Positions 4,737 through 18,561 of a DNA stretch of 64,000 nt are shown here, in pieces. Location of the stretch: contig JBMFRC010000012.1 of the NCBI GenBank assembly GCA_049968235.1, positions 33,366 to 97,365 on the forward strand, written 5' to 3'. Both the position numbers and the translations under genes were made by a program. The notes below the pieces were generated by a model, which worked only from the letters and a program-made list of their open reading frames with translations, made no database searches and was not told the origin of the DNA. The stretch's first letter is position 1. Each line of letters opens with the position of its first letter. Source of the stretch: Candidatus Hydrogenedens sp. (GTDB lineage Bacteria; Hydrogenedentota; Hydrogenedentia; Hydrogenedentales; Hydrogenedentaceae).

Positions 4737-5432
4737 ATGGTATCTGAGAAAACAGTAGAAAGATTAAGTTTATACCGCCGAATACTTCAACAATTGAGGG
4801 TCGAGAGTAAAGAAACTATAATGTCCCATGAACTTGCGAATATGTTACACATAAAGCCAGCACAGGTACGCAGGGATATTATGCAATTAGGTTATTCAGG
4901 AATACCTAATAGTGGTTATAGAATTCGACCTCTTTTAGAGAGTATTGCAAATTTTTTAGATTCCCCGTTGCCTCAGAGTGCTGTTTTAGTAGGTGTTGGA
5001 CATTTAGGACTTGCGTTATTGGCTAACTTTGCAGGACGATGGAGGCAATTAGCTATTCGTGCCTCTTTTGATAAAGACCCTGCAAAAGTAGGACAGACTT
5101 TTCATGGTTGTCGTTGTTATGCTATGTGTGATTTGCAAAAAGTAATTGCGGAGACAAAAAGTGTAGTAGGCATCCTGGCAATACCGGGTGAAAGTGCCCA
5201 ATCTGTTTGTGACCTTCTTGTTCAGTCAGGTATTAGTGGCGTATTAAATTTTTCCCCATTGCGAATTAAAGTGCCTGATAATGTCTTTATAGAACATGTT
5301 GACCTTTCCGCTACGTTTGAAAAAGTTTCGTTCTTTGCAAGAAGAATGAAACATTATGCAGAAGAAGAAAAACGGAAAGTAGAAAATGAAATTACTGAGG
5401 GTGAATACGAAACATTAACAACCAATCAATAA
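4737..5432 (+). CDS. rex: Redox-sensing transcriptional repressor Rex (NADH/NAD+-responsive)
   Basis: N-terminal winged-helix with LSLYRRIL, then Rossmann GVGHLGLALLANF, then ILAIPGESAQSVCDLLVQSGISGVLNFSP. These are the canonical Rex blocks; the protein also has an acidic C-terminal tail. Confidence 0.85.
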   Translation: MVSEKTVERLSLYRRILQQLRVESKETIMSHELANMLHIKPAQVRRDIMQLGYSGIPNSGYRIRPLLESIANFLDSPLPQSAVLVGVGHLGLALLANFAGRWRQLAIRASFDKDPAKVGQTFHGCRCYAMCDLQKVIAETKSVVGILAIPGESAQSVCDLLVQSGISGVLNFSPLRIKVPDNVFIEHVDLSATFEKVSFFARRMKHYAEEEKRKVENEITEGEYETLTTNQ

Positions 5433-5458
5433 ATAAAAAATTTTGTAGGAGATAGAAT

Positions 5459-5983
5459 ATGAATGAAGAATCAAAGCATGCGTGTATGGAAGAAGCAAGT
5501 GAAGAAGAACTGCTTGCTCGGCTTGATGAAGTAATTGCAGAATATAAGGACAAGCCCGGTGCTCTTATTCCTGTTCTGCAGATTGCTCAGGCTATGTTTG
5601 GTTATCTACCCGAAAGTGCATTAAAAAAGATTAGTTTGGGACTGAACAAACCGTATAGTGAAGTTGCAGGTGTGGTAACATTTTACTCATTCTTTTCAAC
5701 CCAGCCTCGTGGAAAACATATGATTCGTGTCTGTTTAGGAACTGCTTGTTATGTCCGTGGTGGCAAACAGGTTCTTTCTGCAATTAAGGATAAACTCCAT
5801 ATTGATGTTGGAGAGACCACGAAAGACCGTATGTTCTCTTTAGAGGTGGCTCGTTGTTTTGGTGCTTGTGGGCTTGCTCCTGCCATTATGGTGGATAACG
5901 ATGTGCATCAACGGGTAAAACCTGCCCGAATTCAGGCTATTTTAGACCAGTATTTAGACAAAAACACAGAAAAAAATAAATAA
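5459..5983 (+). CDS. hndA: NuoE-like [2Fe-2S] subunit of multimeric [FeFe] hydrogenase (HndA/HydC-like)
   Basis: Thioredoxin-like 2Fe-2S fold with the Cys pattern CLGTACYVRGG ... CFGACGLAPA, typical of NuoE/HoxE/HydC. A good RBS (TAGGAGATAGAAT-ATG) precedes the start. Confidence 0.8.
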   Translation: MNEESKHACMEEASEEELLARLDEVIAEYKDKPGALIPVLQIAQAMFGYLPESALKKISLGLNKPYSEVAGVVTFYSFFSTQPRGKHMIRVCLGTACYVRGGKQVLSAIKDKLHIDVGETTKDRMFSLEVARCFGACGLAPAIMVDNDVHQRVKPARIQAILDQYLDKNTEKNK

Positions 5984-6005
5984 GAAATAAATAAGGAGAA
6001 AAGCC

Positions 6006-6377
6006 ATGTCAAATATTATTCATTCTCCAGAAGACCTTAATGCTTTACGAGAAAAGGCAATTAAGGACATTGAGATTCGTAATTCACATAAAGATTTGGT
6101 GATTACTGTTCACATGGGAACATGTGGTATTGCTGCGGGTGCCAGAGAAGTATTAAAAAATATCATCTCTGAAATTTCTGCTATAGGTATAACCAATGTT
6201 ACAGTCCGTCAATCTGGATGTGCAGGTCTCTGCGACCGTGAACCCATGATTACGGTTACTCATAAATCCTCCGGTTCTGAATATCGTTATGGAAAATTAA
6301 ACACGGAAAAGATACGAGAAATTGTGAAACAGCATATTGCAGAAGGTAAACCTGTGATGGAATATTTAATTTCCTGA
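6006..6377 (+). CDS. hndB: Thioredoxin-like [2Fe-2S] ferredoxin (HndB-like small hydrogenase subunit)
   Basis: 123 aa with cysteine motifs HMGTCGIAAGA and CAGLCDREP of 2Fe-2S Trx-like ferredoxins. It sits between the NuoE-like and NuoF-like genes, as in hnd operons. Confidence 0.7.
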   Translation: MSNIIHSPEDLNALREKAIKDIEIRNSHKDLVITVHMGTCGIAAGAREVLKNIISEISAIGITNVTVRQSGCAGLCDREPMITVTHKSSGSEYRYGKLNTEKIREIVKQHIAEGKPVMEYLIS

Positions 6378-6460
6378 TGAAGAAATACAGGGTAAATTCG
6401 GATTCCCATAAAGTGGTTGAGATGAACATGTATAGCAAAATAAGAAAGAATGATATAGAA

Positions 6461-7906
6461 ATGAAAATGAACATATTACATCTATTTCTTATTTTATTTT
6501 TATGTTCATCCGCAACCTTTACTGAAATATCTGATTGGGAAACCATCTCACTTTCGGATACAGGAGAAGCATTACAAAATCCCGGCATGGGATGGGTATT
6601 ACATTTTTACGATAATGTTCCTGAAAATTATGGTTCTAAATTAGCCCCTTCAGATACTGTTGATGAATTCCCTGCCCTTTCAGTTATTTATTTGCGAATA
6701 GCATGGTCGTTTTTAGAACCTGAAGAAGGAAAGTATAACTGGTCTATATTGGATACTCCTTCTCAACGATGGATTTCTAAAGGGAAACAAATTGCTTTGC
6801 GCATTACCTGTAGTGAAACTCCTATTCCATGGGCGACACCAAAATGGGTTTATGAAGCAGGAGCCAAAGGTAATTTCTTCATTCCTACCCAGGGGATAAA
6901 AGAAAATGGGACACATTGGGAACCCGAATTTGATGACCCTGTTTTCTTGGATAAGTTGGATAATTTTTTAGCAGTGTTAGCAAAGAGATATGATGAAAAT
7001 CCGGAAATAGCCTTCATAGATATGGGTTCATTAGGAGTGTGGGGAGAAGGTCATGTATGGCATTCCACACAAAAACATATTTCGACGGAAACCATAAAAA
7101 AACACATTGATTTGCACATAAAGCACTTTAAAAACACAATAATTGCTCTAAATGATGACCTTATCACAAATGGGCAAAAATTGGATGTAATTCCCGAAGA
7201 GAAAAAAGAACTCCTCAATTATGCTATCAAAAATGGGTTAACACTTCGCGATGATAGTATTCTTGTTCAGGGTGGAGATAATGTATATTTTAGTGCAAGC
7301 CTTGCGGAATACTTCTGGCGAAATAGACCTATCATTTTAGAATCTGAACATTATGGACCATCAAAGGCTGAAAGGCATTGGGGGGACGGAAGTAAATATT
7401 TACAGGCTGTAGAAGATTACCATGCAAGTTATACTTCTATTCATTGGTGGCCAAGGGAGTTTTTACAAGAAAACAAAGATTTGATAGATAAAATCAATCT
7501 TCGTTTGGGGTATCGTATTGTCCCTACCGAAGTTAAATGGCAAAAGACAGTAAAAATATCCGAGAAAAAATGGGATATATCCTACCGTTGGGCAAATAAA
7601 GGAGTGGCACCTTGTTATCGGGATGTATATCCCATTATTACATGGAAAGATGAGAAAGGAGGAATTGTTGCTGTTTTTACAGATGAGACATTTAATCTCA
7701 AACAATTACCAATAGGGAAGCAGGATGAATTAAAAGAAATTGAGGTAAAAAAATCTTTTTTTATTCCTTTTTTATTGAAAGAAGGAAATTATACAGTATT
7801 CATTTCAGCGGGTTCTATTACGGGCACGCCTGAAATTCAATTACCGTTAAACAACACAGACCATGAAAAAAGATATGTTATAGGTAAAGTTAATGTTGTT
7901 TTGTGA
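6461..7906 (+). CDS. Secreted TIM-barrel glycoside hydrolase-like protein (GH42/GH35-like N-terminal motif; DUF4832-like)
   Basis: Signal peptide MNILHLFLILFLCSSATF. AWSFLEPEEGKYNW matches the GH42/GH35 W-x-x-LEP-x-x-G-x-Y motif, and GSLGVWGEGH matches GH42-like blocks. The most likely start is internal, at the MKMNILH methionine at 6461. Confidence 0.5.
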   Translation: MKMNILHLFLILFLCSSATFTEISDWETISLSDTGEALQNPGMGWVLHFYDNVPENYGSKLAPSDTVDEFPALSVIYLRIAWSFLEPEEGKYNWSILDTPSQRWISKGKQIALRITCSETPIPWATPKWVYEAGAKGNFFIPTQGIKENGTHWEPEFDDPVFLDKLDNFLAVLAKRYDENPEIAFIDMGSLGVWGEGHVWHSTQKHISTETIKKHIDLHIKHFKNTIIALNDDLITNGQKLDVIPEEKKELLNYAIKNGLTLRDDSILVQGGDNVYFSASLAEYFWRNRPIILESEHYGPSKAERHWGDGSKYLQAVEDYHASYTSIHWWPREFLQENKDLIDKINLRLGYRIVPTEVKWQKTVKISEKKWDISYRWANKGVAPCYRDVYPIITWKDEKGGIVAVFTDETFNLKQLPIGKQDELKEIEVKKSFFIPFLLKEGNYTVFISAGSITGTPEIQLPLNNTDHEKRYVIGKVNVVL

Positions 7907-7977
7907 AAAAAAATATAAAGATATAAATAAAAACTTCAGAAATGAAGCATACACAAGTTATGGAAAGGAGAAAAAAA

Positions 7978-10900
7978 ATGAGTCCATTTCGAAGTCATGT
8001 ATTAATCTGTGCAGGTGCAGGATGCGTGGCATCAGGTTCGATGGAAGTAAGTTCCGCCTTTTCGGAGGCACTTGCCAAACATGGGCTAAATGAAGAAATT
8101 CAAGTAGTCCATACAGGATGTTTAGGACCCTGTGCTATTGGTCCCGTGGTCGTGATTTATCCAGATGCTATTTTTTATCAAGGTGTTAAAACAACAGATG
8201 TTGAAGATATTGTTGTTGAGCATCTGTTAAAAGGTCGGCCTGTTAGTCGCTTGAATTTCAAATCTACTACCACATCACAAATTATTCCTGCACTGCAGGA
8301 GATTGGTTTTTTCAAGCAACAGACAAAGATAGTTTTAAGGAACTGTGGTATTATAGACCCTACAAAAATTGAGGAGTATATTGCGAGAGATGGGTATCAG
8401 GCTTTAGCAAAAGTACTGACAAAAATGACTCCACAGCAGGTAGTAGAAGAAGTGAAAAAATCTGGACTTCGGGGAAGAGGTGGTGCAGGATTCCCAACAG
8501 GTATAAAGTGGGAGTTAACTCAAAAAGCCCACGGAGATAAGAAATATGTTCTTTGTAATGCTGATGAAGGTGACCCGGGCGCATTTATGGACAGAAGTGT
8601 TTTGGAAGGTGACCCCCATAGTGTTATTGAAGCTATGATTATAGCAGGATATGCCATTGGTTCTGACCAGGGATATATTTATGTTCGAGCAGAATATCCT
8701 TTAGCGGTAGAGAGATTAAATATAGCGATAAAGCAAGCCAGAGAATATGGTTTGTTAGGTAAGAATATTATGGGAACGAATTTTAATTTCGACCTTGAAA
8801 TACGAATGGGTTCAGGTGCTTTTGTGTGTGGAGAAGAAACCGCATTGATGCGTTCTATCGAAGGGAAACGCGGAGAACCCAGACCCCGTCCACCGTTCCC
8901 TGCATATAAAGGTTTATGGGAAAAACCCAGTTTATTAAATAATGTAGAAACCTATGCAAACATCCCTGTAATTATATTAAAAGGTGCTGATTGGTTTGCT
9001 TCCATAGGAACAGGTAAAAGTAAAGGAACAAAAGTGTTTGCCTTAGCAGGTGCTGTAAACAACACAGGATTGGTCGAAATTCCGATTGGTACACCATTAG
9101 GTGAAATTATTTATGATATTGGCGGTGGAATTCCGCGAGGCAAACAATTTAAGGCAGCGCAAATTGGAGGTCCTTCCGGCGGTTGTATTCCAAAACAACA
9201 TCTGAATGTGCCGGTAGATTACGAGTCATTACAGGAATTAGGAGCGATTATGGGTTCCGGTGGATTAATTGTTATGGATGAAGACACATGTATGGTCGAT
9301 ATGGCTCGTTTCTTCCTTGACTTTGTTCAGGATGAGTCATGTGGAAAATGTGTCCCATGCCGGGTCGGAACGAAAAGAATGTTGGAAATTGTGACAAGGA
9401 TTTGTGAGGGTCGGGGAGAAGAAGGCGATATTGAAAAACTTATTGAATTAGGACAACAGATTAAAGATGCATCGTTATGTGGATTAGGGCAGACAGCTCC
9501 AAACCCTGTTCTTTCTGCAATACGGCACTTCCGTGATGAATTTGAAATTCATATTCGTGAACATAAATGTCCGGCGGGTGTCTGTCCATCTCTTGTTCGT
9601 GCTCCTTGTATGAGTGCTTGCCCGGCAAATGTTTACATTCCGGGTTTTGTCTCATTAATATCTGAAAAACGATATGCGGAAGCACTTCGTGTGCATCGTG
9701 ACCAGAACCCCTTTGCATCTGTATGTGCCCGTGTGTGTTTCCATACTTGTGAGGACAAATGTAGAAGAGCTACTCTGGATGAAGCGGTATCCATACGCGG
9801 ATTGAAGCGATTTATGGTAGAGCAAGAAGTTACAATACAACTACCTGAAATTCGTGAAAATGAACAAAATCTTCGCAAAAAGGTGGCTATTATAGGAGCA
9901 GGTCCTGCAGGTCTAACCTGTGCTTATTTCCTTGCACGATTAGGCTATCAACCCCGTGTTTTTGAATCTGCACCCAGGCCCGGCGGTATGTTAGTTCAAA
10001 CAATTCCCGCTTATCGGTTACCCCGAGAAGAATTGGCTCGAGAAATTCGTATGATAGAAAGAATGGGCGTTGTCATAGAAACTGAAAAAGCCTTAGGTCG
10101 TGATTTTACATTACAAAGCCTTCGTGATGATGGATATGAGGCTATTTTTCTCGGAATAGGTGCTCCATCAGGTCAAAAATTGAGAATTCCAGGCGAAGAT
10201 GCGGATGGCGTTGTCGAAGCCATAGACTTCCTTCGTGAATACAATCTCCGTGGTTCTGTTCCTGTAGGGAAAAATGTTGTTATTATAGGAGGTGGTAATG
10301 CAGCTATTGATGCGGCAAGAACTGCCATTCGTTTAGGAGCAAAAAAAGCAACGATTCTTTACCGCAGAACAAGAGAAGAGATGCCTGCGTATAAAGAAGA
10401 GATCGAAGAAGCAGTTAATGAAGGTGTTATTTTAAAAATGTTAGTAACTCCACTGGAGATTTTGACAGAAAACGGAAAAGTTGTTGGTGTAAAATGTCAA
10501 CACATGTGGTTAGGAGAATATGACCGTTCCGGTAGAAGAAGACCTGAAGCCAAAAAGGGTGAAGAACCCTTTGTTGAAGAAGCAGACCAGGTTATTGCAG
10601 CAATAGGGCAAACTGTTGATTTAAAACGTTACCTGGATGGATTAAATGTTAAGTTAACACCTTCTGGTTTCTTGTGGGTAGACCAATTATATGGTCAGAC
10701 CTCTATTGAATGGTTATTTGCAGGTGGTGATATTAGTTCAGGTCCTTCTTCCGTAGCAGAAGCAATCGGTGCTGGTGAAAGAGCTGCAGTTGGAATTGAT
10801 AAGTATCTTACTGGAGAAGAACATGCTTTCTGGCGCGAACCCTATATGGTAGATACAGAATTTGACCCAGATTCCGACCCGGTAGATTTCCCAAGAGCAA

Positions 10901-11066: not shown

Positions 11067-12839
11067 ATGCCAAAATTAACTATAGATGGAATTCCCGTAG
11101 AAGTTCCGGAAGGAACAACAATACTTCAAGCGGCAAAGCAAATAGGATTAAAAATACCGACACTTTGTTATCTTGAAGAAGTTCAAGCCATCGGTGCCTG
11201 TCGTGTTTGCGTTGTTGAAGTTGAAGGAGCACGAACTTTGGTCGCTTCTTGTGTTGCTCCTGTTGCGGAAGGAATGAAAGTCCATACAAATTCAAAAAGA
11301 GCCCGTGAGGCACGAAAAACAGTTGTAGAATTGTTACTATCCGACCATGATGGCGATTGCCAGATTTGTGTTCGAAATGAAGATTGTGAACTTCAGGAAT
11401 TGGCACGAACACTTGGGATAAAGGAAATTCGCTATCAAGGTGAGAAGAGAAAACGGATTGTGGATGAAAGCACTCCCGCTGTTGTTCGTGATACATCGAA
11501 ATGTGTCTTATGTAGAAGATGTATAACGGTTTGCAATGAGGTTCAGGGTGTTGGCGGACTGTTCCCACAAAATCGTGGCTTTGAAACGGTAATAGGTCCC
11601 GCATTTTGTAGTGATTTGGATGATGTCGTATGTGTTCAGTGTGGTCAATGTAGTGCGGTTTGTCCTGTGGGTGCTATTGTAGAAAGAGACCAGATTGCGG
11701 ATGTCTTTTCTGCATTAGATGACCCGACAAAAACAGTCGTTGTCCAGACAGCCCCTGCAATTCGTGCCGCATTGGGAGAATGTTTTGGTTTACCACCCGG
11801 AACTTTAGTAACAGGGAAGATGGTTACCGCACTTCGTAGACTGGGTTTCCATGCCGTTTTTGATACTAACTTTGCCGCTGACCTTTGTATTATGGAAGAA
11901 GGTACAGAACTGCTAACTCGATTGAAGAAAAAACTGGTAGATGGGGAGAATATTGCTCTTCCTATGTTTACCAGTTGTTCTCCGGGGTGGATTAAGTTTT
12001 TAGAACATTTCTACCCGGATATGATTCCAAATGTATCTACATGCAAATCCCCACAGCAAATGTTTGGTGCTATAGCAAAGACCTATTATTCCAAGAAAAT
12101 TGGTAAGAAACCCGAAGATATTGTTGTTGTTTCTATTATGCCCTGTACAGCGAAGAAATATGAACATCAGCGTCCCGAGATGAACAGTTCCGGTGTTCGT
12201 GATGTGGACTATGTGCTTACAACGCGTGAATTGGGTCGGATGATAAAACAGGCAGGCATTGATTTTGTAAATCTACCCGATGACAAGCAAGACTCACCAT
12301 TAGGACTATCCTCTGGTGCTGCGGATATTTTTGCGAATACCGGGGGTGTTATGGAAGCGGCAATTCGAACTGTTTATGAAATAGTAACAGGACGCGAATT
12401 ACCATTCGATGGACTTCATGTTGCTCCTATCGAAGGATTAGAAGGAATCAAGGAAGCCTCCTTGAAGATAGAAAAATGTGTGCCTGAATGGTCTTTCTTA
12501 GAAGGGGCTACCGTAAATGTTGCTGTGGCTCATGGATTGGGTAATGCCAGAGCATTAATAGAGCGAGTTCGCTCAGGTGAAAAGGCGTATCACTTTATAG
12601 AAATTATGACCTGTCCCGGTGGATGTATTGGTGGAGGAGGACAACCTCGCTTTACAGATAATTCAGTTCGTCTTGCTCGTATTCAGGCCATATACAAAGA
12701 GGATGAAGGGAAACAACTTCGTAAGTCCCATGTAAATCCTGACATACAAAAATTGTATAAGGAATTTTTAGGACATCCGAATAGTGAAGTTTCACATCAT
12801 CTATTACATACGCATTACAATCCGAGAACAAAAGTATAA
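11067..12839 (+). CDS. hydA: [FeFe]-hydrogenase catalytic subunit (HydA/HndD) with N-terminal 2Fe-2S and 4Fe-4S ferredoxin domains; non-canonical L1 motif TSCSPGW
   Basis: The N-terminal plant-type 2Fe-2S is CYLEE...CRVC, and the 4Fe-4S Fd motifs are CVLCRRCITVC and CVQCGQCSAVCP. For the H-cluster, L2 is MPCTAKKYE and L3 is EIMTCPGGCIGGGGQP, both canonical. L1 reads FTSCSPGW where TSCCPxW is expected. Confidence 0.9.
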   Translation: MPKLTIDGIPVEVPEGTTILQAAKQIGLKIPTLCYLEEVQAIGACRVCVVEVEGARTLVASCVAPVAEGMKVHTNSKRAREARKTVVELLLSDHDGDCQICVRNEDCELQELARTLGIKEIRYQGEKRKRIVDESTPAVVRDTSKCVLCRRCITVCNEVQGVGGLFPQNRGFETVIGPAFCSDLDDVVCVQCGQCSAVCPVGAIVERDQIADVFSALDDPTKTVVVQTAPAIRAALGECFGLPPGTLVTGKMVTALRRLGFHAVFDTNFAADLCIMEEGTELLTRLKKKLVDGENIALPMFTSCSPGWIKFLEHFYPDMIPNVSTCKSPQQMFGAIAKTYYSKKIGKKPEDIVVVSIMPCTAKKYEHQRPEMNSSGVRDVDYVLTTRELGRMIKQAGIDFVNLPDDKQDSPLGLSSGAADIFANTGGVMEAAIRTVYEIVTGRELPFDGLHVAPIEGLEGIKEASLKIEKCVPEWSFLEGATVNVAVAHGLGNARALIERVRSGEKAYHFIEIMTCPGGCIGGGGQPRFTDNSVRLARIQAIYKEDEGKQLRKSHVNPDIQKLYKEFLGHPNSEVSHHLLHTHYNPRTKV

Positions 12840-12858
12840 GATAAGATTTAATAATAAA

Positions 12859-12882
12859 GGGGAGTGTGAGTGAGCACTCCCC
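12859..12882 (+). terminator. GC-rich hairpin after hydA (possible weak terminator/attenuator)
   Basis: GGGGAGTG-tgagtgag-CACTCCCC forms an 8-bp stem 20 nt after the hydA stop codon, but no U-tract follows it. Confidence 0.25.
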
Positions 12883-12964
12883 ATACAATCCTATGAAGTT
12901 GTATAATAGGAATATAGGTAGGAGTAAGTAGGTTTATGAGTGTCTAATATTTAGGAAAGAAAAA

Positions 12965-13360
12965 ATGGAAAATAAAATTATAATGGTCGTTGATGATGAT
13001 ATTGATGTTCAGGATTTCTGTAAAATTGTATTAGGAAGAGAGGATTATCAGGTTATAACATTTTCCAACTCAGAGAGTGCACTCGAATATTTATCGTCGA
13101 ACACTCCCTCTGTAATTATTACCGATTTAATGATGGGTGGAATTGATGAGGGTGTCCAATTTGTTAATAAGATTAGAGGATTCGATAATGAGAAGGCAAA
13201 AATTCCAATTATAATGATTACAGGCATAAATTCAAAATTAGGATATGACATCACTCCCCGTTCCGATGAAGAAAAAAAACAAATGAAAATCGATGAATTT
13301 ATATCAAAACCTTTAAATCCAAAACAGTTAATAACAGCACTAAAAAAAGTAATCAAATAG
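12965..13360 (+). CDS. Single-domain response regulator (CheY-like receiver only)
   Basis: 131 aa with acidic pocket VVDDD, a phospho-acceptor in SVIITDLMMGG and a conserved K in FISKP. There is no output domain. Confidence 0.75.
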   Translation: MENKIIMVVDDDIDVQDFCKIVLGREDYQVITFSNSESALEYLSSNTPSVIITDLMMGGIDEGVQFVNKIRGFDNEKAKIPIIMITGINSKLGYDITPRSDEEKKQMKIDEFISKPLNPKQLITALKKVIK

Positions 13361-13412: not shown

Positions 13413-14810
13413 ATGAGTTCAAATGTAGAAACTGTTCCTATTAATGAGGAATTTATTTTTGATACTTTAAAAAATAGTGTCAAGAAAGATGCGGTTTACA
13501 TCAAAGAAATTCTTGCAAAAGCCCTTGAATTAAAGGGATTAGATGCGACAGAAGTAGCCACGCTTGCAACAATAAGTGACCCTGACCTGTTAAAAGAACT
13601 TTTCGATACAGCCCGAAAAGTCAAAGAGGAGATTTACGGTAAACGATTAGTTCTTTTTGCCCCACTTTATGTATCAAATCTTTGCAAGAATGAATGCTTA
13701 TATTGTGCTTTCCGTAAAAGTAACAAGATGGTTCGTAGAAAAGCATTGACACAAGAAGAAGTCCGTAGAGAGGTTGAAACATTGGTTGACCAGGGGCATA
13801 AACGCATTCTATTAGTGGCAGGCGAGTCCTATCCTTCCGAAGGATTTGATTATGTTATTCATTGTATCGAAACAATATATAGTGTAAAGCGGGATAGGGG
13901 AGAGATACGACGCGTAAATGTGAATATAGCACCCTTATCGTTAGAGGAATTTAAAAGGCTGAAATCAGCAAAAATTGGGACATATCAGTTATTTCAAGAA
14001 ACATACCACAGAGAAACATACCAAAAAGTCCATGTAGGTGGACTTAAAAAGGATTTTGACTGGAGAATTACCGCTATGGACCGTGCTATGAAAGCTGGCA
14101 TTGATGATGTGGGTGTTGGCGTTCTTTTTGGCTTATTTGATTGGAGATTTGAAATACTTGCTTTAATGCAACATATTAAACATTTAGAAGATACCTTCGG
14201 TGTAGGATGTCACACGATAAGTGTACCTCGCCTTGAACCTGCTATAGGTTCAGACCTGGCTTCACATCCCCCTTATCCGGTATCAGACCTTGATTTCAGA
14301 AAAATTGTAGCTATACTAAGACTTGCTGTGCCCTATACAGGAATAATAATGTCCACTCGTGAAACTCCCAATATACGAAGAGAAACCTTTGCACTGGGTG
14401 TATCACAAATATCAGCAGGCAGTAGAACGAATCCAGGTGGGTATACAGGCAGTGAAGAAGAGGATATGAGCCAATTCTCATTAGGTGACCATCGCAGTCT
14501 GGATGAGGTTATTCGTGATGTTACAAAATTAGGTTATATCCCATCCTTCTGCACGGCTTGTTATCGTTTAGGCAGAACAGGTGCTGACTTTATGGACCTT
14601 GCCAAGCCGGGTCTTATCAAGAACCATTGTGAAGTTAATGCTTTAAGCACTTTTGCTGAATATCTGGAAGATTATGCATCCTCCGAAACAAAACAAATAG
14701 GTTGGGCAAAGATTGAGGAAATTTTAAATACAATGCCTGAAGTTCGGAAAAAACGTACCGAAGGGATGTTGGCTCGTGTAAAAGCCGGTGAACGGGATGT
14801 ATATGTGTAA
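13413..14810 (+). CDS. hydG: [FeFe]-hydrogenase maturase HydG (radical SAM tyrosine lyase)
   Basis: The radical SAM motif is CKNECLYCAF. The C-terminal auxiliary-cluster motif CTACYR...(22)...HC (Cx2Cx22C) separates HydG from ThiH. A length of about 465 aa fits. Confidence 0.9.
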   Translation: MSSNVETVPINEEFIFDTLKNSVKKDAVYIKEILAKALELKGLDATEVATLATISDPDLLKELFDTARKVKEEIYGKRLVLFAPLYVSNLCKNECLYCAFRKSNKMVRRKALTQEEVRREVETLVDQGHKRILLVAGESYPSEGFDYVIHCIETIYSVKRDRGEIRRVNVNIAPLSLEEFKRLKSAKIGTYQLFQETYHRETYQKVHVGGLKKDFDWRITAMDRAMKAGIDDVGVGVLFGLFDWRFEILALMQHIKHLEDTFGVGCHTISVPRLEPAIGSDLASHPPYPVSDLDFRKIVAILRLAVPYTGIIMSTRETPNIRRETFALGVSQISAGSRTNPGGYTGSEEEDMSQFSLGDHRSLDEVIRDVTKLGYIPSFCTACYRLGRTGADFMDLAKPGLIKNHCEVNALSTFAEYLEDYASSETKQIGWAKIEEILNTMPEVRKKRTEGMLARVKAGERDVYV

Positions 14811-14815
14811 ATCTT

Positions 14816-16237
14816 ATGTCAGACTACCGAATTGAAACCGACTTATTGGGTGAAAAAAAGATACCTGCGGATGTCTATTGGGGTATACATACTGCTCGTG
14901 CAGTAGAAAATTTTCCTGTTTCCCGACTCTCGGTTCATTCAGAATTAATCCAATCTTATGGAATTGTAAAACTTGCATGTGCAAAAATAAATTATTCGTT
15001 AGGATACTTATTACATCCTCCTGATAAATCATCTGCCATATTTAACGCTTGCGAAGAAGTAGCAATTGGTAAATGGAATGACCATATTATCGTGGATGCT
15101 CTACAGGGTGGAGCAGGAACCAGCACAAATATGAATATTAATGAGGTTATTGCCAACCGTGCCCTAGAAATATTGGGCTTACCACGGGCAAAATATGACA
15201 TTATTTCCCCATTAGATGATATAAATCTTCACCAATCGACTAACGATACTTATCCTACCGCCCTGAAACTTGCTACGATAAGGATGTTAAGAAAATTAGA
15301 ATCAGAAATTATTCTTCTTTTAGAGACATTTCAAACACTTGAAAAACAATTTTCGGACATAGTAAAAATTGGAAGGACAGAACTTCAAGATGCAACGCCT
15401 ATTACATTAGGTAGGGAGATGGGTGCTTATGCAGATGCCCTAGTAAGAGACCGTTGGCGTATCTATAAGTGTGAAGAAAGATTGCGAGTAGTTAATTTAG
15501 GAGGCACCGCAATAGGAACAGGTTTAGGAGCACCAAGGGATTATATTTTCCGTGTTGTAGATAATCTGCGAGAGTTATCAAATATCGGTTTTTCGCGAGC
15601 AGAAAATTTAGTAGATGCAACTCAAAATCTCGATGTATTTGGGGAAGTATCAGGTATCATTCGTTCCTATGCCATAACGCTTAATAAAATAGCCAATGAT
15701 TTGAGACTAATGTCATCCGGACCCGAAGCAGGTCTCCGTGAAATTCAACTTCCACAATTACAAGCGGGTTCATCTATTATGCCAGGGAAAGTGAACCCTG
15801 TTTTGCCTGAAGCGGTATGCCAGGTTGCAATGCTAACATTTGGATTCGACCAGATTATCACATATGGCTGTTCTTCCGGAAACCTTGAACTAAATCCTTT
15901 TGTCCCTTTGATTGCTCATTGTTTGTTAAATATGATTGAAATGTTAACAAATGTAACAAAATTATTTACGGAAAAATGTATTAAAGGAATTTCGCCGAAC
16001 CGAGAGGTTTGTGTTTCCTATGTGAATAATTCTACAGCAACTCTAACCGCACTTATACAGAAGATAGGATATGAAAAAGCATGTATGATTGCTAAAAAAA
16101 CAAGTAATTTGAAAAAGAGTATTCGAGAAATTGTATTGGAAGAAGGAGTTTTGACTCCTGAAGAATTTGATACTCTTTTAAGTCCTGAGTCCGTTTGTAA
16201 ATTAGGATTTGTTGACACCAGTAATGAGATAGATTAG
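14816..16237 (+). CDS. aspA: Aspartate ammonia-lyase (aspartase/fumarase class II family) homolog embedded in hyd maturase cluster
   Basis: RIETDLLGEKKIPADVYWGIHTARAVENF, QGGAGTSTNMNINEVIAN and the signature GSSIMPGKVNP match aspartase closely and are closer to AspA than to FumC. Confidence 0.8.
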   Translation: MSDYRIETDLLGEKKIPADVYWGIHTARAVENFPVSRLSVHSELIQSYGIVKLACAKINYSLGYLLHPPDKSSAIFNACEEVAIGKWNDHIIVDALQGGAGTSTNMNINEVIANRALEILGLPRAKYDIISPLDDINLHQSTNDTYPTALKLATIRMLRKLESEIILLLETFQTLEKQFSDIVKIGRTELQDATPITLGREMGAYADALVRDRWRIYKCEERLRVVNLGGTAIGTGLGAPRDYIFRVVDNLRELSNIGFSRAENLVDATQNLDVFGEVSGIIRSYAITLNKIANDLRLMSSGPEAGLREIQLPQLQAGSSIMPGKVNPVLPEAVCQVAMLTFGFDQIITYGCSSGNLELNPFVPLIAHCLLNMIEMLTNVTKLFTEKCIKGISPNREVCVSYVNNSTATLTALIQKIGYEKACMIAKKTSNLKKSIREIVLEEGVLTPEEFDTLLSPESVCKLGFVDTSNEID

Positions 16238-16246
16238 GAAGGAAAT

Positions 16247-17500
16247 ATGCTTAGAGCATCACCAAAATCATTTCGACTGCATATTGGTTTTTTTGGTAGA
16301 AGGAATGTTGGAAAATCCAGTTTACTTAATGCAATTACACGACAAAATGTCTCAATTGTTTCTGAATCCGCAGGAACCACAACAGACCCCGTGGAAAAAC
16401 CTATGGAACTACTACCTTTAGGTCCTGTTCTATTCATTGATACTGCGGGCATTGATGATATAGGTGCTTTAGGAGAATTACGGATACAAAAAACAAGACA
16501 AATTTTTGACCGAACCGATGTTGCGGTTGTTGTTACAGAAGCCGGTATATGGGGAGAATTTGAGGAAGGCTTGTGTAATGAGTTTAAGTCAAGAAATGTT
16601 CCTATCGTAGTTGTGTTTAACAAAGTGGACCTGCATGAACCTGATGAAACATTGTGTAATAGGTTGAAAAATGAGAAAATTCTATATGTAAAGACTATTG
16701 CATCAAAGCAGGATGGTATTAGTGAACTCAAAAATGCACTTATTTCTTCAGCCCCCGATGATTTTATAAATAGTCCAACGATTTTAGGAGATTTGGTAGC
16801 TCCTGGTGAATTGGCTGTGCTTGTCGTGCCTATAGATAAAGAAGCACCTAAAGGAAGACTTATTATGCCTCAGGTTCAATCCATCCGTGATTTGTTAGAT
16901 AACGATGCTATGTGTGTTGTCGTAAAAGAAAGAGAACTCCGGCGAATTTTAGAACAATTAAAAATTCTTCCAAAGATTGTTGTTACTGATTCCCAGGCAT
17001 TCTTAAAAGTCGTCGCAGATACTCCTTCCAATGTATGGGTTACAAGTTTTTCAATATTATTTTCAAGATTCCGCGGAGATTTAATTACACAGGTGGAAGG
17101 AACACTTGCTATCGAATCATTGAAACCCGGAGATAAAATACTTATTGCAGAATCATGCTCGCATCACCCTATTGCCGATGATATAGGAAGGGTTAAAATA
17201 CCAAGATGGTTAATGCAATATATCGGTGGAAAATTAGAATTTGATACTGTTCAGGGAAATGATTTTTTTTCAGATTTAACAAAATATAAAATGGTTATAC
17301 ACTGTGGAGCATGCACACTCAATCGCCGTGCTATGTTAAATCGTATTATGCATTGCAAAAAACAAGGGATACCAATAAGTAATTACGGGTTAACTATAGC
17401 CTATTCTTTAGGTATCCTCGAAAGGGCATTAGAACCATTCCCATCCGCATTGGAAATATATAAACAGAAAACAACAAAAAAGTTGCAAAACATTAAATAA
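16247..17500 (+). CDS. hydF: [FeFe]-hydrogenase maturase GTPase HydF
   Basis: The GTPase G1 motif is GRRNVGKSSLLNA and G3 is DTAG. The C-terminal cluster motif is CSHHP...HCGAC (CxHx(n)HCxxC). Confidence 0.85.
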   Translation: MLRASPKSFRLHIGFFGRRNVGKSSLLNAITRQNVSIVSESAGTTTDPVEKPMELLPLGPVLFIDTAGIDDIGALGELRIQKTRQIFDRTDVAVVVTEAGIWGEFEEGLCNEFKSRNVPIVVVFNKVDLHEPDETLCNRLKNEKILYVKTIASKQDGISELKNALISSAPDDFINSPTILGDLVAPGELAVLVVPIDKEAPKGRLIMPQVQSIRDLLDNDAMCVVVKERELRRILEQLKILPKIVVTDSQAFLKVVADTPSNVWVTSFSILFSRFRGDLITQVEGTLAIESLKPGDKILIAESCSHHPIADDIGRVKIPRWLMQYIGGKLEFDTVQGNDFFSDLTKYKMVIHCGACTLNRRAMLNRIMHCKKQGIPISNYGLTIAYSLGILERALEPFPSALEIYKQKTTKKLQNIK

Positions 17501-17508
17501 AATAAAAC

Positions 17509-18561
17509 ATGGATAAAAAAAATATTATTAATTGGCTTCGTGAAAAAAACGAAGATAAATTAAACGAACTATGGGAATTGGCGGATTCTATCCGCAGTAA
17601 ATATGTAGGAGAAGAGGTGCATCTTCGAGGTTTGATAGAAATATCAAACTATTGCAAAAAAAACTGTCTATACTGTGGAATACGAATTTCTAATAGAAAA
17701 TTAACCCGATATAGAATGGAAGACAGCGAGATTTTGGAATGTGTGGAATTTGCCAAAAGAAATGGCTATGGAACAATAGTCCTTCAATCCGGCGAAGACC
17801 CCGATTTTACAAAAGAAAAAATCGCCGAATTAATTAGAAAAATAAAAGAAAATGCAAATGTGGCTATTACATTAAGTTTAGGAGAGCAGGAAAAACACAC
17901 ATTAGAATTATGGAAATCTGCCGGAGCCAATCGTTATCTTCTTCGTTTTGAAACCTCAGATGAAATCCTATTTAAAAGAATCCATTCGTCAGAACAAGCA
18001 AAAAGTTTAGAGAATAGAATTAAACAACTAAAAATACTTAAACAATTAGGCTACGAAGCAGGAAGTGGGATAATGATTGGAATACCCTATCAAACTTATG
18101 AAAGCATCGCTAATGATATCCTACTTTTCAAACAATTAGACCTTGATATGATAGGAATAGGACCATACATTCCTCATCCCGATACACCTTTAGGACAGGA
18201 ATATCTTAATAAATATAAAAAAGATGATGAAAAATTTGTCCCAAACACAGAATTAATGACATATAAAGTCCTTGCATTAACCCGAATTATATGTCCAACC
18301 GTAAACATTCCTGCCACCACTGCCCTTGCAACTGTGAATACACGAGAAGGTCGCATTTTAGCCCTGAAGAGGGGAGCCAATGTTATCATGCCGAATCTCA
18401 CTCCACCAAAATATAAAAAATTGTATGAAATTTATCCAGGTAAATCGTCTGCTGATGAACCTCCAGAAATTATTCATCAAAGTATAATGAAGATTATAGA
18501 AAAGGCAGGAAGAAAAGTAGGAACAGGGATGGGAAATCGCAAAAAAATCATAGATATTTAA
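17509..18561 (+). CDS. hydE: [FeFe]-hydrogenase maturase HydE (radical SAM, BioB-like)
   Basis: CKKNCLYCG radical SAM motif, a BioB-like TIM barrel length of 350 aa, and a position at the end of the hydG-hydF cluster. Confidence 0.85.
   Translation: MDKKNIINWLREKNEDKLNELWELADSIRSKYVGEEVHLRGLIEISNYCKKNCLYCGIRISNRKLTRYRMEDSEILECVEFAKRNGYGTIVLQSGEDPDFTKEKIAELIRKIKENANVAITLSLGEQEKHTLELWKSAGANRYLLRFETSDEILFKRIHSSEQAKSLENRIKQLKILKQLGYEAGSGIMIGIPYQTYESIANDILLFKQLDLDMIGIGPYIPHPDTPLGQEYLNKYKKDDEKFVPNTELMTYKVLALTRIICPTVNIPATTALATVNTREGRILALKRGANVIMPNLTPPKYKKLYEIYPGKSSADEPPEIIHQSIMKIIEKAGRKVGTGMGNRKKIIDI

What the first reader, a model, noticed from the sequence alone, without database searches (positions are those of the whole stretch)
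4737..18561. Complete [FeFe]-hydrogenase structural plus maturation locus in one co-directional 14-kb block
Eleven genes sit in a row on the + strand: rex, a NuoE-like gene, a 2Fe-2S Fd gene, a GH-like insert, the NuoF/GltD fusion, hydA, a receiver-only regulator, hydG, an aspartase homolog, hydF and hydE. Having regulator, all subunits and all three maturases contiguous is uncommon, because hydEFG are often scattered. The block is a good candidate for heterologous transfer as a unit, and it suggests that H2 metabolism is important in this organism.
Basis: partly seen in the sequence, partly recalled or inferred. Interest (0 to 1): 0.6.

Follow-up and report, generated by a model that had tools for sequence, protein, structure and literature searches.

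The report
Rex-controlled [FeFe]-hydrogenase and maturase gene cluster
This is a real, intact 14-kb gene cluster from an uncultured Candidatus Hydrogenedens bacterium that encodes a redox-regulated hydrogen-producing or hydrogen-consuming enzyme together with everything needed to build its metal cofactor; almost every part belongs to an already described family, so it is a tidy example rather than a discovery.

Summary
Eleven co-directional genes at 4737-18561 encode Rex, a NuoE-like subunit, a small 2Fe-2S protein, an exported DUF4832/GH-like protein, a NuoF::GltD fusion, HydA, a receiver-only regulator, HydG, aspartase, HydF and HydE.

- **Source:** the window comes from a Candidatus Hydrogenedens MAG.
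- **Hydrogenase:** it matches the "sub-type I BfuABCD" group A3 enzyme described bioinformatically for Hydrogenedentota in 2024. In that type the ferredoxin-binding end of HydB is replaced by a 2x[4Fe-4S] + FAD/NADP(H) module.
- **Known associations:** aspA next to hydF (2024) and Rex control of [FeFe]-hydrogenase genes were both already published.
- **Regulation:** a perfect sigma-70 promoter is followed by the window's two best Rex boxes, and all three are conserved in relatives.
- **Transcription units (inferred):** the only two intergenic GC-rich hairpins in 64 kb, after hydA and after hydE, suggest two units.
- **Rarity:** among 37 species-level orthologous loci with full flanks, 8 have all three maturases within 10 kb and 5 also have rex.
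- **GH-like gene:** it carries a signal peptide, is under purifying selection, and sits at the same operon position in 7 other distinct loci. It is a lineage-specific passenger gene.

No sign of chimeric assembly. Interest is modest; the untested NADP(H) coupling is the open question.

The parts
4629..4657 (+). Sigma-70-type promoter: TTGACA, 17-bp spacer, TATAAT, with a TGn extended -10
   Evidence: It is the only 12/12 match in 4300-19300. Both hexamers are invariant in the orthologous loci L001 and L004.
4658..4675 (+). Rex operator 1, TTGTTCATAAATTCACAA, directly abutting the -10 box
   Evidence: It is the best match in the whole 64-kb window to the Rex consensus TTGTGAANNNNTTCACAA, at 12/14. 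It is conserved in L001 and L004. The consensus is as quoted in PMC6391272.
4677..4696 (.). Perfect 9-bp inverted repeat, TATACTTAC-AG-GTAAGTATA, between the two Rex boxes. Function unknown: either the site of a second regulator or a 5'-UTR stem.
   Evidence: Read directly from the sequence. It is conserved in L001 and largely in L004.
4702..4719 (+). Rex operator 2, TTGTTTGTAAATTCACAA
   Evidence: It scores 11/14 to the consensus, and only 6 positions in 64 kb reach 11 or more. It is one of only two exact matches to TTGT-N7-TTCACAA in the window. Its right half-site is conserved in relatives.
4737..5432 (+). rex, the redox-sensing repressor, presumably autoregulated
   Evidence: NF003995 at 192 bits against a cutoff of 126; PF06971 plus PF02629. 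A Rossmann motif GVGHLG is present.
5459..5983 (+). hydC/hndA/bfuC: NuoE-like [2Fe-2S] subunit
   Evidence: PF01257 at 174 bits. The CxxxxC and CxxxC motifs are present.
6006..6377 (+). hndB/hydD/bfuD: small thioredoxin-like ferredoxin-type subunit of 123 aa, with only three Cys
   Evidence: PF01257 at 24.4 bits, just under the gathering cutoff. The gene occupies the same position in 14 of 37 orthologous loci.
6377..7906 (+). Exported DUF4832/clan GH-A-like glycoside hydrolase, a lineage-specific passenger gene. The likely true start is 6461, as in the NCBI model.
   Evidence: - PF16116 plus PF02449.
- 100% identical to a Ca. Hydrogenedens MAG protein.
- AF2 model with pLDDT 91: a TIM barrel plus a beta-sandwich.
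- Foldseek matches GH14, GH35, GH5 and GH30 enzymes.
- Signal peptide present.
- dN/dS of about 0.1.
- Same slot in 7 other distinct loci.
7942..11049 (+). hydB::gltD (sub-type I BfuB). Domains in order: N-terminal 2Fe-2S, FMN/NADH site, [4Fe-4S], then DPD_II 2x[4Fe-4S] plus an FAD/NADP(H) module in place of the ferredoxin-like C-terminus. An alternative start lies at 7978.
   Evidence: - Pfam and NCBIfam domain hits.
- Residues 14-553 match solved HydB chains 7t2r_B and 7q4v_B.
- Residues 553-1023 match the GltD modules of 9bov_A, StnC 8oh5_C and NfnA 9n5u_A.
- GxGxxG and GxGxxA motifs are present.
11067..12839 (+). hydA: M3-type group A [FeFe]-hydrogenase catalytic subunit
   Evidence: NF040763 at 907 bits. 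H-cluster motifs are TSCSPGW, MPCTAKKYE and EIMTCPGGCIGGGGQP. The best solved relative is A. woodii HydA1, 7q4v_A, at 650 bits, and it has the same TSCSPGW motif.
12859..12882 (+). GC-rich hairpin 20 nt after the hydA stop codon: a candidate partial terminator or mRNA-end stabiliser with no clear U-tract
   Evidence: Free energy -18.2 kcal/mol, z = -4.4. It is conserved, with changes on both arms, in L001, L074, L004 and L052. It is one of only two intergenic GC-rich hairpins in the window.
12902..12907 (+). Conserved TATAAT, the candidate -10 box of an internal promoter for the maturation unit (inferred)
   Evidence: Conserved as (A/T)GTATAAT in the window, L001, L074 and L052. There is no good -35 hexamer and no Rex box nearby.
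12965..13360 (+). Stand-alone CheY-like receiver protein of 131 aa
   Evidence: PF00072 at 68.6 bits with no output domain. D10/D11, D54, T86 and K115 are present. The gene is absent from L052.
13413..14810 (+). hydG: radical SAM maturase that makes the CO/CN synthon
   Evidence: TIGR03955 at 540 bits against 312. CX3CX2C and the C-terminal CX2CX22C motif are present.
14816..16237 (+). aspA-like aspartate ammonia-lyase, immediately upstream of hydF
   Evidence: NF008909 at 629 bits against 510. The GSSIMPGKVNP loop is present. The aspA-hydF pair recurs in L016, L046, L076 and L087. Its role as an ammonium donor was shown in vitro in PMC11736057.
16247..17500 (+). hydF: GTPase scaffold maturase
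   Evidence: TIGR03918 at 557 bits against 326, with the HydF dimer and tetramer domains. The P-loop and the CxH...HCxxC motif are present.
17509..18561 (+). hydE: radical SAM maturase
   Evidence: TIGR03956 at 331 bits against 255. The CX3CX2C motif is present.
18717..18734 (+). Second GGGAG...CTCCC hairpin, about 155 nt after hydE: the candidate end of the maturation unit
   Evidence: The pattern GGGAG-N(3-20)-CTCCC occurs only here and after hydA in 64 kb, against 0.21 expected. See also the hairpin scan. It was not found at this position in relatives.

Best explanation
The block is the hydrogen-metabolism locus of a Candidatus Hydrogenedens bacterium.

**Regulation (inferred).** A strong promoter overlapped by two Rex operators drives rex, hydC (NuoE-like), hndB, an exported glycoside-hydrolase-like gene, hydB::gltD and hydA. 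When the NADH/NAD+ ratio rises, Rex should leave the operators and the unit is transcribed.

**Enzyme.** The products, apart from the exported enzyme, assemble into a cytoplasmic Hnd/HydABC(D)-type group A3 [FeFe]-hydrogenase.
- Shown by sequence: HydB keeps the FMN/NADH core of the Bfu family, but its C-terminal 2x[4Fe-4S] ferredoxin-docking domain is replaced by a Stn-type GltD module (2x[4Fe-4S], FAD, GxGxxA NADP(H) site).
- Inferred: the branch that normally ends at ferredoxin is therefore wired to NADP(H). The enzyme most likely couples H2/H+ to both NAD(H) and NADP(H), with the more reducing NADPH pool helping NADH-driven H2 release at low H2 pressure, or the reverse reaction.

**Maturation unit.** A conserved hairpin after hydA and a conserved -10 box suggest a second, semi-independent unit: receiver protein, hydG, aspA, hydF, hydE. 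This unit builds the H-cluster. HydG makes the Fe(CO)2CN synthon. HydE and HydF assemble the 2Fe subcluster. AspA supplies ammonium for the dithiomethylamine bridge; that role is established in vitro for E. coli AspA, not for this protein.

**Passenger gene.** The glycoside-hydrolase-like gene is co-transcribed but is not part of the hydrogenase.
For: - **Gene identities:**
- **Source organism:** (100% match to a Ca. Hydrogenedens MAG protein).
- **Promoter and Rex boxes:**. They are conserved against an otherwise diverged AT-rich spacer in L001 and L004. Similar boxes lie upstream of rex or nuoE in L021, L041, L067, L069 and L077.
- **Rex precedent:** Rex represses [FeFe]-hydrogenase genes and hydG in C. 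bescii (PMC6391272).
- **HydB anatomy:**. It is the same architecture as 'sub-type I BfuB' (PMC11406978).
- **Ferredoxin site:** in a solved Bfu enzyme ferredoxin docks at the BfuB B3/B4 C-terminal domain, which is the part replaced here (PMC12018979).
- **GltD module:** the Stn GltD module binds NADPH/FAD and does not bifurcate (PMC10482914).
- **Conservation of the fusion:** it sits next to hydA in 36 of 37 orthologous loci across many phyla.
- **Two-unit model:**
- **aspA-hydF pairing:**, and PMC11736057.
- **Passenger status of the GH-like gene:** signal peptide; GH-A-like fold; homologues elsewhere are not beside hydrogenase genes; the gene is absent from most orthologous loci.
Against: - No transcript, binding or enzyme data exist for this organism. 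The operon boundaries, Rex control and substrate coupling are all inferences.
- The Rex boxes have degenerate left half-sites (5/7 and 4/7).
- The post-hydA hairpin lacks a U-tract in the window, so it may not terminate transcription at all.
- The internal promoter has no recognisable -35 hexamer.
- NADP(H) specificity rests only on a GxGxxA motif and on similarity to Stn/Nfn modules.
- The DPD_II clusters could still dock ferredoxin, as in NfnB.
- The GH-like gene is retained in the same operon slot in 7 other distinct loci under purifying selection. That is more persistent than expected for a pure passenger.
Confidence: 0.8

Rival explanations
1. The fused GltD module provides a second, canonical FAD bifurcation site, so the enzyme has two bifurcating centres (FMN-FeS and FAD). 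It would then work as a combined hydrogenase and Nfn-like transhydrogenase that still uses ferredoxin. This is the postulate of Zheng and Huang (2024).
For: The module belongs to the same superfamily as NfnB/NfnL, whose FAD does bifurcate (290 bits to 4ylf_B and 5jca_L). The paper raises this possibility explicitly.
Against: The module is closer to the Stn and Nfn-Bfu GltD domains (407, 365 and 342 bits) than to NfnB, and that domain in StnC has lost bifurcation. No NfnA-like partner (2Fe-2S plus a second FAD) is encoded in the block. The canonical ferredoxin-docking domain is missing.
Confidence: 0.15
2. The enzyme is a plain, non-bifurcating NAD(P)H-dependent hydrogenase. Either nucleotide can independently exchange electrons with the H-cluster, with no energetic coupling between them.
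For: HydABC enzymes whose HydB lacks the B3/B4 clusters are non-bifurcating NADH-dependent hydrogenases, as summarised. NCBI names this HydA family 'NADH-dependent [FeFe] hydrogenase, group A6'.
Against: The NuoE-like subunit with its C1 cluster and the N-terminal HydB 2Fe-2S domain, both parts of the bifurcating core, are retained and highly conserved (dN/dS 0.01-0.03). The fusion is maintained in 36 of 37 loci, which argues for a coupled function.
Confidence: 0.3
3. All eleven genes form one 14-kb operon transcribed from the Rex-controlled promoter, and the hairpin after hydA is only an RNA-stability element.
For: All genes are co-directional with short gaps. The hairpin has no U-tract in the window. 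No Rex box or strong promoter precedes the receiver gene.
Against: A TATAAT downstream of the hairpin is conserved in four relatives. In more distant orthologous loci the maturases lie elsewhere, so they must be transcribed independently there. A matching hairpin closes the second half of the block.
Confidence: 0.35
4. The DUF4832 protein is functionally tied to the hydrogenase. For example, Rex-controlled release of fermentable sugar could be matched to H2-disposal capacity. On this view it is not a neutral passenger.
For: The operon-embedded copies form one clade. They hold the same slot in 7 other distinct loci, down to 64% identity, under purifying selection comparable to hydE.
Against: The protein is exported and the hydrogenase is cytoplasmic. 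The sister clade and a paralog in the same genome are unlinked to hydrogenase genes. 34 of 37 orthologous loci lack it.
Confidence: 0.2
5. The contiguity is an assembly or binning chimera that joins unrelated contigs.
For: None was found. The source is a MAG, so the possibility had to be checked.
Against: The identical gene order recurs in independent assemblies from ENA, JGI and NCBI. GC3 is uniform. The flanking genes (radical SAM, 740-aa gene, leuCD) are conserved on both sides.
Confidence: 0.01

Closest known systems
Sub-type I BfuABC(D) group A3 [FeFe]-hydrogenase of Hydrogenedentota (Zheng and Huang 2024, mSystems, PMC11406978)
   Same: Same phylum and the same gene order, C-D-B-A. BfuB has its B3/B4 ferredoxin domain replaced by DPD_II plus a C-terminal FAD/NAD(P) domain. 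HydA has the M3a-type layout with Ser at the fifth position of the P1 motif.
   Different: The paper does not mention rex, the maturases, aspA, the receiver gene or the DUF4832 insert. Its general sub-type I cluster has no gene between bfuD and bfuB. No biochemistry exists for any member.
Hnd (HndABCD) of Desulfovibrio fructosovorans and HydABCD of Caldanaerobacter; HydABC of Acetobacterium woodii, Thermoanaerobacter kivui and Thermotoga maritima (PDB 7q4v, 8a6t, 7p5h)
   Same: NuoE-like, small Fd-like, NuoF-like and HydA subunits occur in the same order. HydA gives 650 bits to A. woodii HydA1 and the HydB core gives 835 bits to A. woodii HydB.
   Different: The canonical HydB ends in a 2x[4Fe-4S] ferredoxin-like domain where ferredoxin is reduced. 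Here that domain is replaced by about 480 residues of GltD-like module. The gene order of Hnd is recalled from my own knowledge and was not checked here.
Stn / Nfn-Bfu transhydrogenases (StnABC of Sporomusa ovata, PDB 8oh5; NfnABC of Thermococcus sibiricus, PDB 9n5u)
   Same: They have the same NuoE plus NuoF bifurcating core and the same sub-type of GltD-like NADPH/FAD module. These are the best PDB matches for residues 553-1023.
   Different: In Stn and Nfn-Bfu the GltD module is inserted into the NuoG-like subunit, which has no H-cluster, and feeds the mid-potential path, while StnB keeps its ferredoxin domain. Here the module is fused to the HydB C-terminus and the NuoG-like subunit is a true hydrogenase.
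hyd maturation clusters with aspA (Pagnier et al. 2024, JBC, PMC11736057)
   Same: hydG, hydE and hydF are clustered, with aspA adjacent to hydF.
   Different: Here the maturases are also contiguous with the structural genes and a Rex gene. The AspA of this organism is untested.
Rex regulon of anaerobes (consensus TTGTGAANNNNTTCACAA; C. bescii study PMC6391272)
   Same: An autoregulated rex, with operators in front of [FeFe]-hydrogenase genes.
   Different: Here rex is the first gene of the hydrogenase unit itself, and no Rex box precedes hydG. In C. bescii hydG has its own Rex site.

Membership tests
Group A3 multimeric (HydABC/Hnd/Bfu-type) [FeFe]-hydrogenase | HydA carries the three H-cluster motifs and an N-terminal 2Fe-2S plus 3x[4Fe-4S] (M3) region | tested here: met
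   The motifs are TSCSPGW, MPCTAKKYE and EIMTCPGGCIGGGGQP. Pfam finds Fer2_4, NADH-G_4Fe-4S_3, Fer4 domains, Fe_hyd_lg_C and Fe_hyd_SSU. NF040763 scores above its cutoff.
Group A3 multimeric (HydABC/Hnd/Bfu-type) [FeFe]-hydrogenase | Adjacent NuoE-like and NuoF-like (FMN/NADH) subunit genes | tested here: met
   PF01257 at 174 bits; PF01512 plus PF10589. The genes lie directly upstream of hydA.
Group A3 multimeric (HydABC/Hnd/Bfu-type) [FeFe]-hydrogenase | HydB C-terminal 2x[4Fe-4S] ferredoxin-like domain (B3/B4), the ferredoxin reduction site | tested here: not met
   Alignment to solved HydB chains stops at residue ~552 of the query and ~542 of ~599 in the chain. From there on the sequence is Fer4_20 plus Pyr_redox_2.
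Group A3 multimeric (HydABC/Hnd/Bfu-type) [FeFe]-hydrogenase | Electron bifurcation or confurcation between NAD(H), ferredoxin and H2 | not testable with these tools
   This needs the purified enzyme.
Sub-type I BfuABCD of Hydrogenedentota (PMC11406978) | BfuB with DPD_II plus a C-terminal FAD/NAD(P)-binding domain in place of B3/B4 | tested here: met
   compared with the description.
Sub-type I BfuABCD of Hydrogenedentota (PMC11406978) | Gene order C-D-B-A and Hydrogenedentota origin | tested here: met
   The order is shown. The organism follows. The difference is one extra gene between D and B.
HydE/HydF/HydG H-cluster maturases | Equivalog HMM above its curated cutoff, plus radical-SAM CX3CX2C (HydE, HydG), HydG CX2CX22C, and the HydF P-loop and CxH...HCxxC | tested here: met
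   for the scores; for the motifs, read from the translations.
Rex-regulated operon | Rex protein plus an 18-bp operator resembling TTGTGAANNNNTTCACAA in the promoter | tested here: met
   for Rex. Searches show the best (12/14) and one of the five next-best (11/14) sites in 64 kb. They are conserved in orthologous promoters.
Rex-regulated operon | NADH-sensitive binding of Rex to the operator, and derepression in vivo | not testable with these tools
   This needs EMSA and transcriptomics.
hyd-associated aspartate ammonia-lyase (PMC11736057) | An aspartase/fumarase-family gene next to hydF with an intact catalytic SS loop | tested here: met
   NF008909 at 629 bits against 510, while the aspA equivalog TIGR00839 scores 516, below its 681 cutoff. 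The GSSIMPGKVNP loop is present. The gene lies 9 bp upstream of hydF.
hyd-associated aspartate ammonia-lyase (PMC11736057) | Supplies ammonium for the dithiomethylamine bridge | not testable with these tools
   This has been shown in vitro only for E. coli AspA.
Stn / Nfn-Bfu transhydrogenase | A NuoG-like subunit without an H-cluster that carries the GltD insertion | tested here: not met
   HydA has a full H-domain, and the GltD module is fused to HydB instead. The locus is therefore not filed as Stn, although it shares that module.
Clan GH-A-like glycoside hydrolase (DUF4832 family) | A (beta/alpha)8 barrel with conserved acidic residues after strands 4 and 7 | tested here: inconclusive
   The barrel plus beta-sandwich fold is supported. 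E196 and E294 are invariant in 48 homologues and sit after predicted strands. Their assignment as the catalytic pair was made by eye, without a superposition.
CheY-like response regulator | Acidic pocket, phospho-acceptor Asp, and conserved Thr and Lys; no output domain | tested here: met
   PF00072 covers residues 6-126 of 131. D10/D11, D54, T86 and K115 were read. No partner kinase was identified; only the ORFs flanking the block were scanned.

The most novel reading that the evidence does not exclude
The HydB::GltD fusion turns a ferredoxin-dependent bifurcating hydrogenase into a ferredoxin-independent enzyme. Its low-potential branch would end at NADP(H), so that NADH and NADPH are confurcated to H2 (or H2 reduces both pools at once). 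That would be a coupling mode not yet shown biochemically for any hydrogenase.

The family is widespread: the fusion sits next to hydA in 36 of 37 orthologous loci, spread over many bacterial phyla. This self-contained Rex-to-hydE block would be a ready-made cassette for testing the idea.
Probability: 0.3. Interest if true: 0.65.

Novelty: new member of a known kind. Interest (0 to 1): 0.3.

Why it matters
If the inference about the fused HydB is right, this enzyme family links H2 directly to both pyridine-nucleotide pools without ferredoxin. That would change how redox balancing and H2 thresholds are modelled for Hydrogenedentota, Planctomycetota, Verrucomicrobiota, Spirochaetota and other uncultured anaerobes.

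The practical value of this window is that one lineage carries the structural genes, the three maturases, AspA and the regulator in a single 14-kb stretch. That makes it a convenient template for heterologous expression of an otherwise uncharacterised hydrogenase type.

As a genomic observation it is a well-preserved instance of published families, not a new system.

Tried and rejected
1. **Defective HydA?** I suspected that TSCSPGW, instead of the textbook TSCCPxW, marked a defective HydA. Rejected: 111 of 120 homologues have it, the active and structurally solved A. woodii HydA1 has it, and the 2024 paper notes it.
2. **Exact look-up of HydA** found nothing. The source was identified through the DUF4832 protein instead.
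3. **Foreign origin or chimera.** The raised GC at 8-12 kb comes from codon positions 1 and 2 only. GC3 is flat.
4. **Rfam scan** of the whole window gave no hits. There is therefore no known riboswitch or leader in the 627-bp hydE-leuC spacer or elsewhere.
5. **BLAST of that spacer** against the window and the loci found only the last ~80 bp before leuC conserved. Nothing repeated and no convincing small ORF.
6. **Sequence search of the DUF4832 protein against PDB** gave only marginal GH42 hits (E ~0.01). The fold search was needed.
7. **Is the DUF4832 family generally hydrogenase-linked?** Rejected by the contexts in L005 and L006.
8. **Earlier description of HydB-GltD hydrogenases.** Nothing was found in the Bfu classification paper, the FBEB evolution paper or broader searches.
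9. **Rex box in front of the maturation unit.** The best score there is 8/14.
10. **Modelling the 1035-aa HydB.** I did not do this, because model coordinates cannot be measured with these tools and the published work already shows predicted structures.

Full report
**Observation**

Profile searches identify them as follows:

- Rex (NF003995, 192 bits, cutoff 126).
- A NuoE/HoxE-like [2Fe-2S] subunit (PF01257, 174 bits).
- A 123-aa thioredoxin-like ferredoxin-type protein (24.4 bits, just under the Pfam cutoff).
- A 509-aa protein with weak DUF4832 and GH42 hits.
- A 1035-aa protein that joins an N-terminal 2Fe-2S domain, the NuoF FMN/NADH and [4Fe-4S] domains, a Fer4_20 (DPD_II) domain and a GltD-type Pyr_redox_2 domain.
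- HydA (NF040763, 907 bits, cutoff 765).
- A receiver-only protein.
- HydG, an aspartate ammonia-lyase, HydF and HydE, each above the curated cutoff of the model cited.

The expected motifs can be read in the translations:

- H-cluster motifs in HydA.
- CX3CX2C in HydE and HydG, and CX2CX22C in HydG.
- The P-loop and CxH...HCxxC in HydF.
- The GSSIMPGKVNP loop in the lyase.
- D10/D11, D54, T86 and K115 in the receiver.
- GxGxxG (FAD) and GxGxxA (NADP(H)-type) in the GltD part.

Gaps between genes run from -1 to 52 bp, except 125 bp after hydA. The block is bounded by a divergent 740-aa GDSL-like gene and by leuCD.

**Source and reality of the arrangement**

The GH-like protein, read from its second candidate start, is 100% identical to a protein annotated from a Candidatus Hydrogenedens MAG (lineage). 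The same gene order occurs in 7 other distinct loci from separate ENA, JGI and NCBI assemblies (L001/L014, L004, L052, L055, L074, L089, L090), and the same flanking genes are present too.

GC3 is flat at 0.21-0.30 across the block and its flanks. The raised GC at 8-12 kb therefore reflects amino-acid composition and not foreign DNA.

Against the closest relatives, synonymous sites are near saturation (dS about 1-1.5), while dN/dS is 0.01-0.11 for every gene. The order has therefore persisted through substantial divergence under purifying selection. A chimeric assembly is excluded for practical purposes.

**The hydrogenase**

HydA is closest to the solved electron-bifurcating HydA1 of A. woodii (650 bits) and T. 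kivui. I first thought its TSCSPGW motif might be a defect. However, 111 of 120 homologues share it, A. woodii HydA1 has it, and it was noted for Hydrogenedentota.

HydB residues 14-553 align with solved HydB chains (838 bits to 7t2r_B, 835 bits to 7q4v_B). The alignment stops about 55 residues before their C-termini, which is just before the 2x[4Fe-4S] ferredoxin-like domain. From residue 553 the best solved matches are GltD-like modules:

- 9bov_A: 407 bits.
- StnC, 8oh5_C: 365 bits.
- NfnA of the T. sibiricus Nfn-Bfu, 9n5u_A: 342 bits.
- NfnB/NfnL: about 290 bits.
- Glutamate synthase small subunit: about 200 bits.

This is the architecture that Zheng and Huang (2024, PMC11406978) call sub-type I BfuB, with gene order C-D-B-A. 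They give no biochemistry and do not mention maturases, Rex or DUF4832.

In the solved Nfn-Bfu enzyme the low-potential path runs from C1 through B3 and B4 to ferredoxin. Ferredoxin docks at the BfuB C-terminal domain (PMC12018979), which is the domain replaced here. In Stn the homologous GltD module is a non-bifurcating NADPH/FAD entry point (PMC10482914).

From this I infer that the branch which normally ends at ferredoxin is wired to NADP(H). The enzyme would then couple H2 to both NAD(H) and NADP(H). This is an inference from domain topology and nothing more. The alternatives are a second bifurcating FAD that still uses ferredoxin, or uncoupled NAD(P)H-dependent activity, and both remain open.

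**Comparative synteny**

A scan of one genome per species returned 80 loci with HydA at 54-96% identity. I annotated them by tblastn with the window's proteins. Among the 37 loci with at least 9 kb on both sides:

| Feature within 10 kb of hydA | Loci (of 37) |
|---|---|
| hydB::gltD fusion next to hydA | 36 |
| Small Fd gene | 14 |
| rex | 11 |
| All three maturases | 8 |
| rex plus all three maturases | 5 |
| DUF4832 gene | 3 (all at 91% HydA identity or more) |

The fusion type occurs in Hydrogenedentota, Planctomycetota, Verrucomicrobiota, Lentisphaerota, Spirochaetota, Bacteroidota, Omnitrophota, Bacillota and other phyla.

More distant Hydrogenedentota loci have only the four core genes, sometimes preceded by PHP and HATPase_c genes (L007/L008) or by rex (L010, L013). 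Full contiguity is therefore a minority state, roughly one locus in five. It is characteristic of the Ca. Hydrogenedens lineage. Published figures agree in spirit: 56% of hydF homologues have at least one other hyd gene within 20 ORFs.

**Regulation**

The only 12/12 sigma-70 match in the region, TTGACA-17-TATAAT with a TGn extension, lies at 4629-4657. Directly after it sits TTGTTCATAAATTCACAA (4658-4675). This is the best match in the whole window to the Rex consensus TTGTGAANNNNTTCACAA, at 12/14. A second site at 4702-4719 scores 11/14, and only six positions in 64 kb reach 11 or more (consensus as quoted).

The promoter hexamers, both boxes and a perfect 9-bp inverted repeat between them (4677-4696) are conserved in L001 and L004, inside otherwise diverged AT-rich DNA. 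Rex-like boxes also precede rex or nuoE in several distant loci. Rex repression of [FeFe]-hydrogenase genes, of hydG and of rex itself has been demonstrated in C. bescii.

No Rex box precedes the receiver gene or hydG; the best score there is 8/14.

**Transcription units (inferred)**

Twenty nucleotides after the hydA stop there is a hairpin with an 8-9 bp GC-rich stem (-18.2 kcal/mol, z = -4.4). Relatives keep it with changes on both arms. It is found at the same place in all Ca. Hydrogenedens loci that extend past hydA.

It is followed by a conserved TATAAT at 12902-12907. A similar GGGAG...CTCCC hairpin lies about 155 nt after hydE. These two are the only intergenic GC-rich hairpins in the whole window, and the motif is expected 0.21 times by chance.

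I therefore favour two units: rex to hydA, and receiver to hydE, with possible read-through. The weak points are the missing U-tract in the window and the absent -35 hexamer.

**Maturation genes and aspartase**

The order is hydG-aspA-hydF-hydE. The aspA-hydF pair recurs in L016, L046, L076 and L087, which carry different phylum labels. aspA is absent from the 84% relative L004.

This matches Pagnier et al. 2024 (PMC11736057). They showed in vitro that aspartate plus AspA can supply the nitrogen of the dithiomethylamine bridge, and they found aspA enriched close to hydF.

**The GH-like gene**

- **Fold.** An AlphaFold model built on 48 homologues (pLDDT 91) shows a (beta/alpha)8 barrel plus a C-terminal beta-sandwich. 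Foldseek matches GH14, GH35, GH5 and GH30 enzymes at 10-13% identity.
- **Candidate catalytic residues.** E196 and E294 are invariant. They sit after predicted strands and are candidate catalytic residues, assigned by eye.
- **Export.** All members have N-terminal signal peptides, so the protein is exported and cannot be a subunit of a cytoplasmic hydrogenase.
- **Family context.** The family is broad (Armatimonadota, Planctomycetota and others). Elsewhere it is not next to hydrogenase genes, and this includes a paralog in the same genome as L004.
- **Persistence.** The operon-embedded copies form a single clade. Every member checked sits between the small Fd gene and hydB, with dN/dS of about 0.1.

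The gene is best described as a functional, lineage-specific passenger. Why it has stayed in this slot is unexplained.

**Verdict**

The finding is real and correctly read. Each component belongs to a published family, and the hydrogenase type was described for this very phylum in 2024.

What this analysis adds:

- The Rex promoter and operator anatomy.
- The probable two-unit structure.
- A quantified frequency of contiguity.
- The nature and conservation of the embedded exported glycosidase-like gene.

The one open question of substance is the substrate coupling of HydB::GltD hydrogenases. It applies to the whole family, not just to this window.

Noticed in passing
window 4677-4696: A perfect 9-bp inverted repeat, TATACTTAC-AG-GTAAGTATA, lies between the two Rex boxes. 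It is conserved in L001 and largely in L004. It could be the site of a second regulator or a 5'-UTR stem.
   Followed up: partly
window 11067-12839 (HydA residue ~305): The P1 H-cluster motif reads TSCSPGW, not the textbook TSCCPxW. From memory, the second Cys of that motif is a [4Fe-4S]H ligand in CpI. The Ser is the norm in this clade (111 of 120 homologues) and is also present in the solved A. woodii HydA1. How the cluster is ligated there was not looked up.
   Followed up: partly
window 18562-19188: The non-coding spacer between hydE and leuC is 627 bp, against about 125 bp in L001 and 243 bp in L004. Only the last ~80 bp are conserved. The rest contains several GC-rich stems, gives no Rfam hit and is not repeated in the window.
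   Followed up: partly
window 6006-6377: The small HndB/BfuD-like protein has only three cysteines (C40, C72, C76). A His lies four residues before C40, close to where the first Cys of the CxxxxC...CxxxC thioredoxin-like 2Fe-2S motif is expected. Its cluster content is uncertain.
   Followed up: no
L052 11771-12211: In this relative (91% HydA identity) the receiver gene is missing. A 440-bp spacer with only a 72-aa ORF lies between hydA and hydG. The receiver is therefore dispensable in at least one lineage.
   Followed up: partly
L037, L041, L046, L048: In MAGs labelled Omnitrophota and Verrucomicrobiota, the fusion-type hydrogenase operon is followed directly by rex and a second, canonical A3 hydrogenase operon. 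In L037, L041 and L046, hydF, hydG and hydE then follow, with aspA as well in L046. The result is a tandem pair of hydrogenase types.
   Followed up: no
L019: A contig binned as a Bathyarchaeia archaeon carries a bacterial-type HydA at 76% identity and two NuoE/NuoF sets. This is probably a binning error, or else a horizontal transfer worth checking.
   Followed up: no
window 1289-2206 and 2256-4478: A 305-aa radical SAM gene and a divergent 740-aa GDSL/DUF459-like gene lie immediately upstream of the block. Both are conserved in synteny in L001, L004, L089 and L090. Any link of the radical SAM gene to hydrogenase maturation was not examined.
   Followed up: no
window 36-1016, 23603-26404 and 26416-28838: Other genes in the window include a type IV pilin-like N_methyl/DUF1559 protein, a GH38 alpha-mannosidase, and a PLP-dependent enzyme next to homoserine dehydrogenase. 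The PLP enzyme is a candidate threonine synthase or ammonia-lyase, which would be relevant to alternative ammonium sources.
   Followed up: no
window 7942-7978: The ORF for hydB::gltD starts at 7942 (1035 aa), but relatives are called at 1023 aa, which corresponds to a start at 7978. Likewise the DUF4832 gene may start at 6377, overlapping the previous stop codon, or at 6461 as in the NCBI model.
   Followed up: partly
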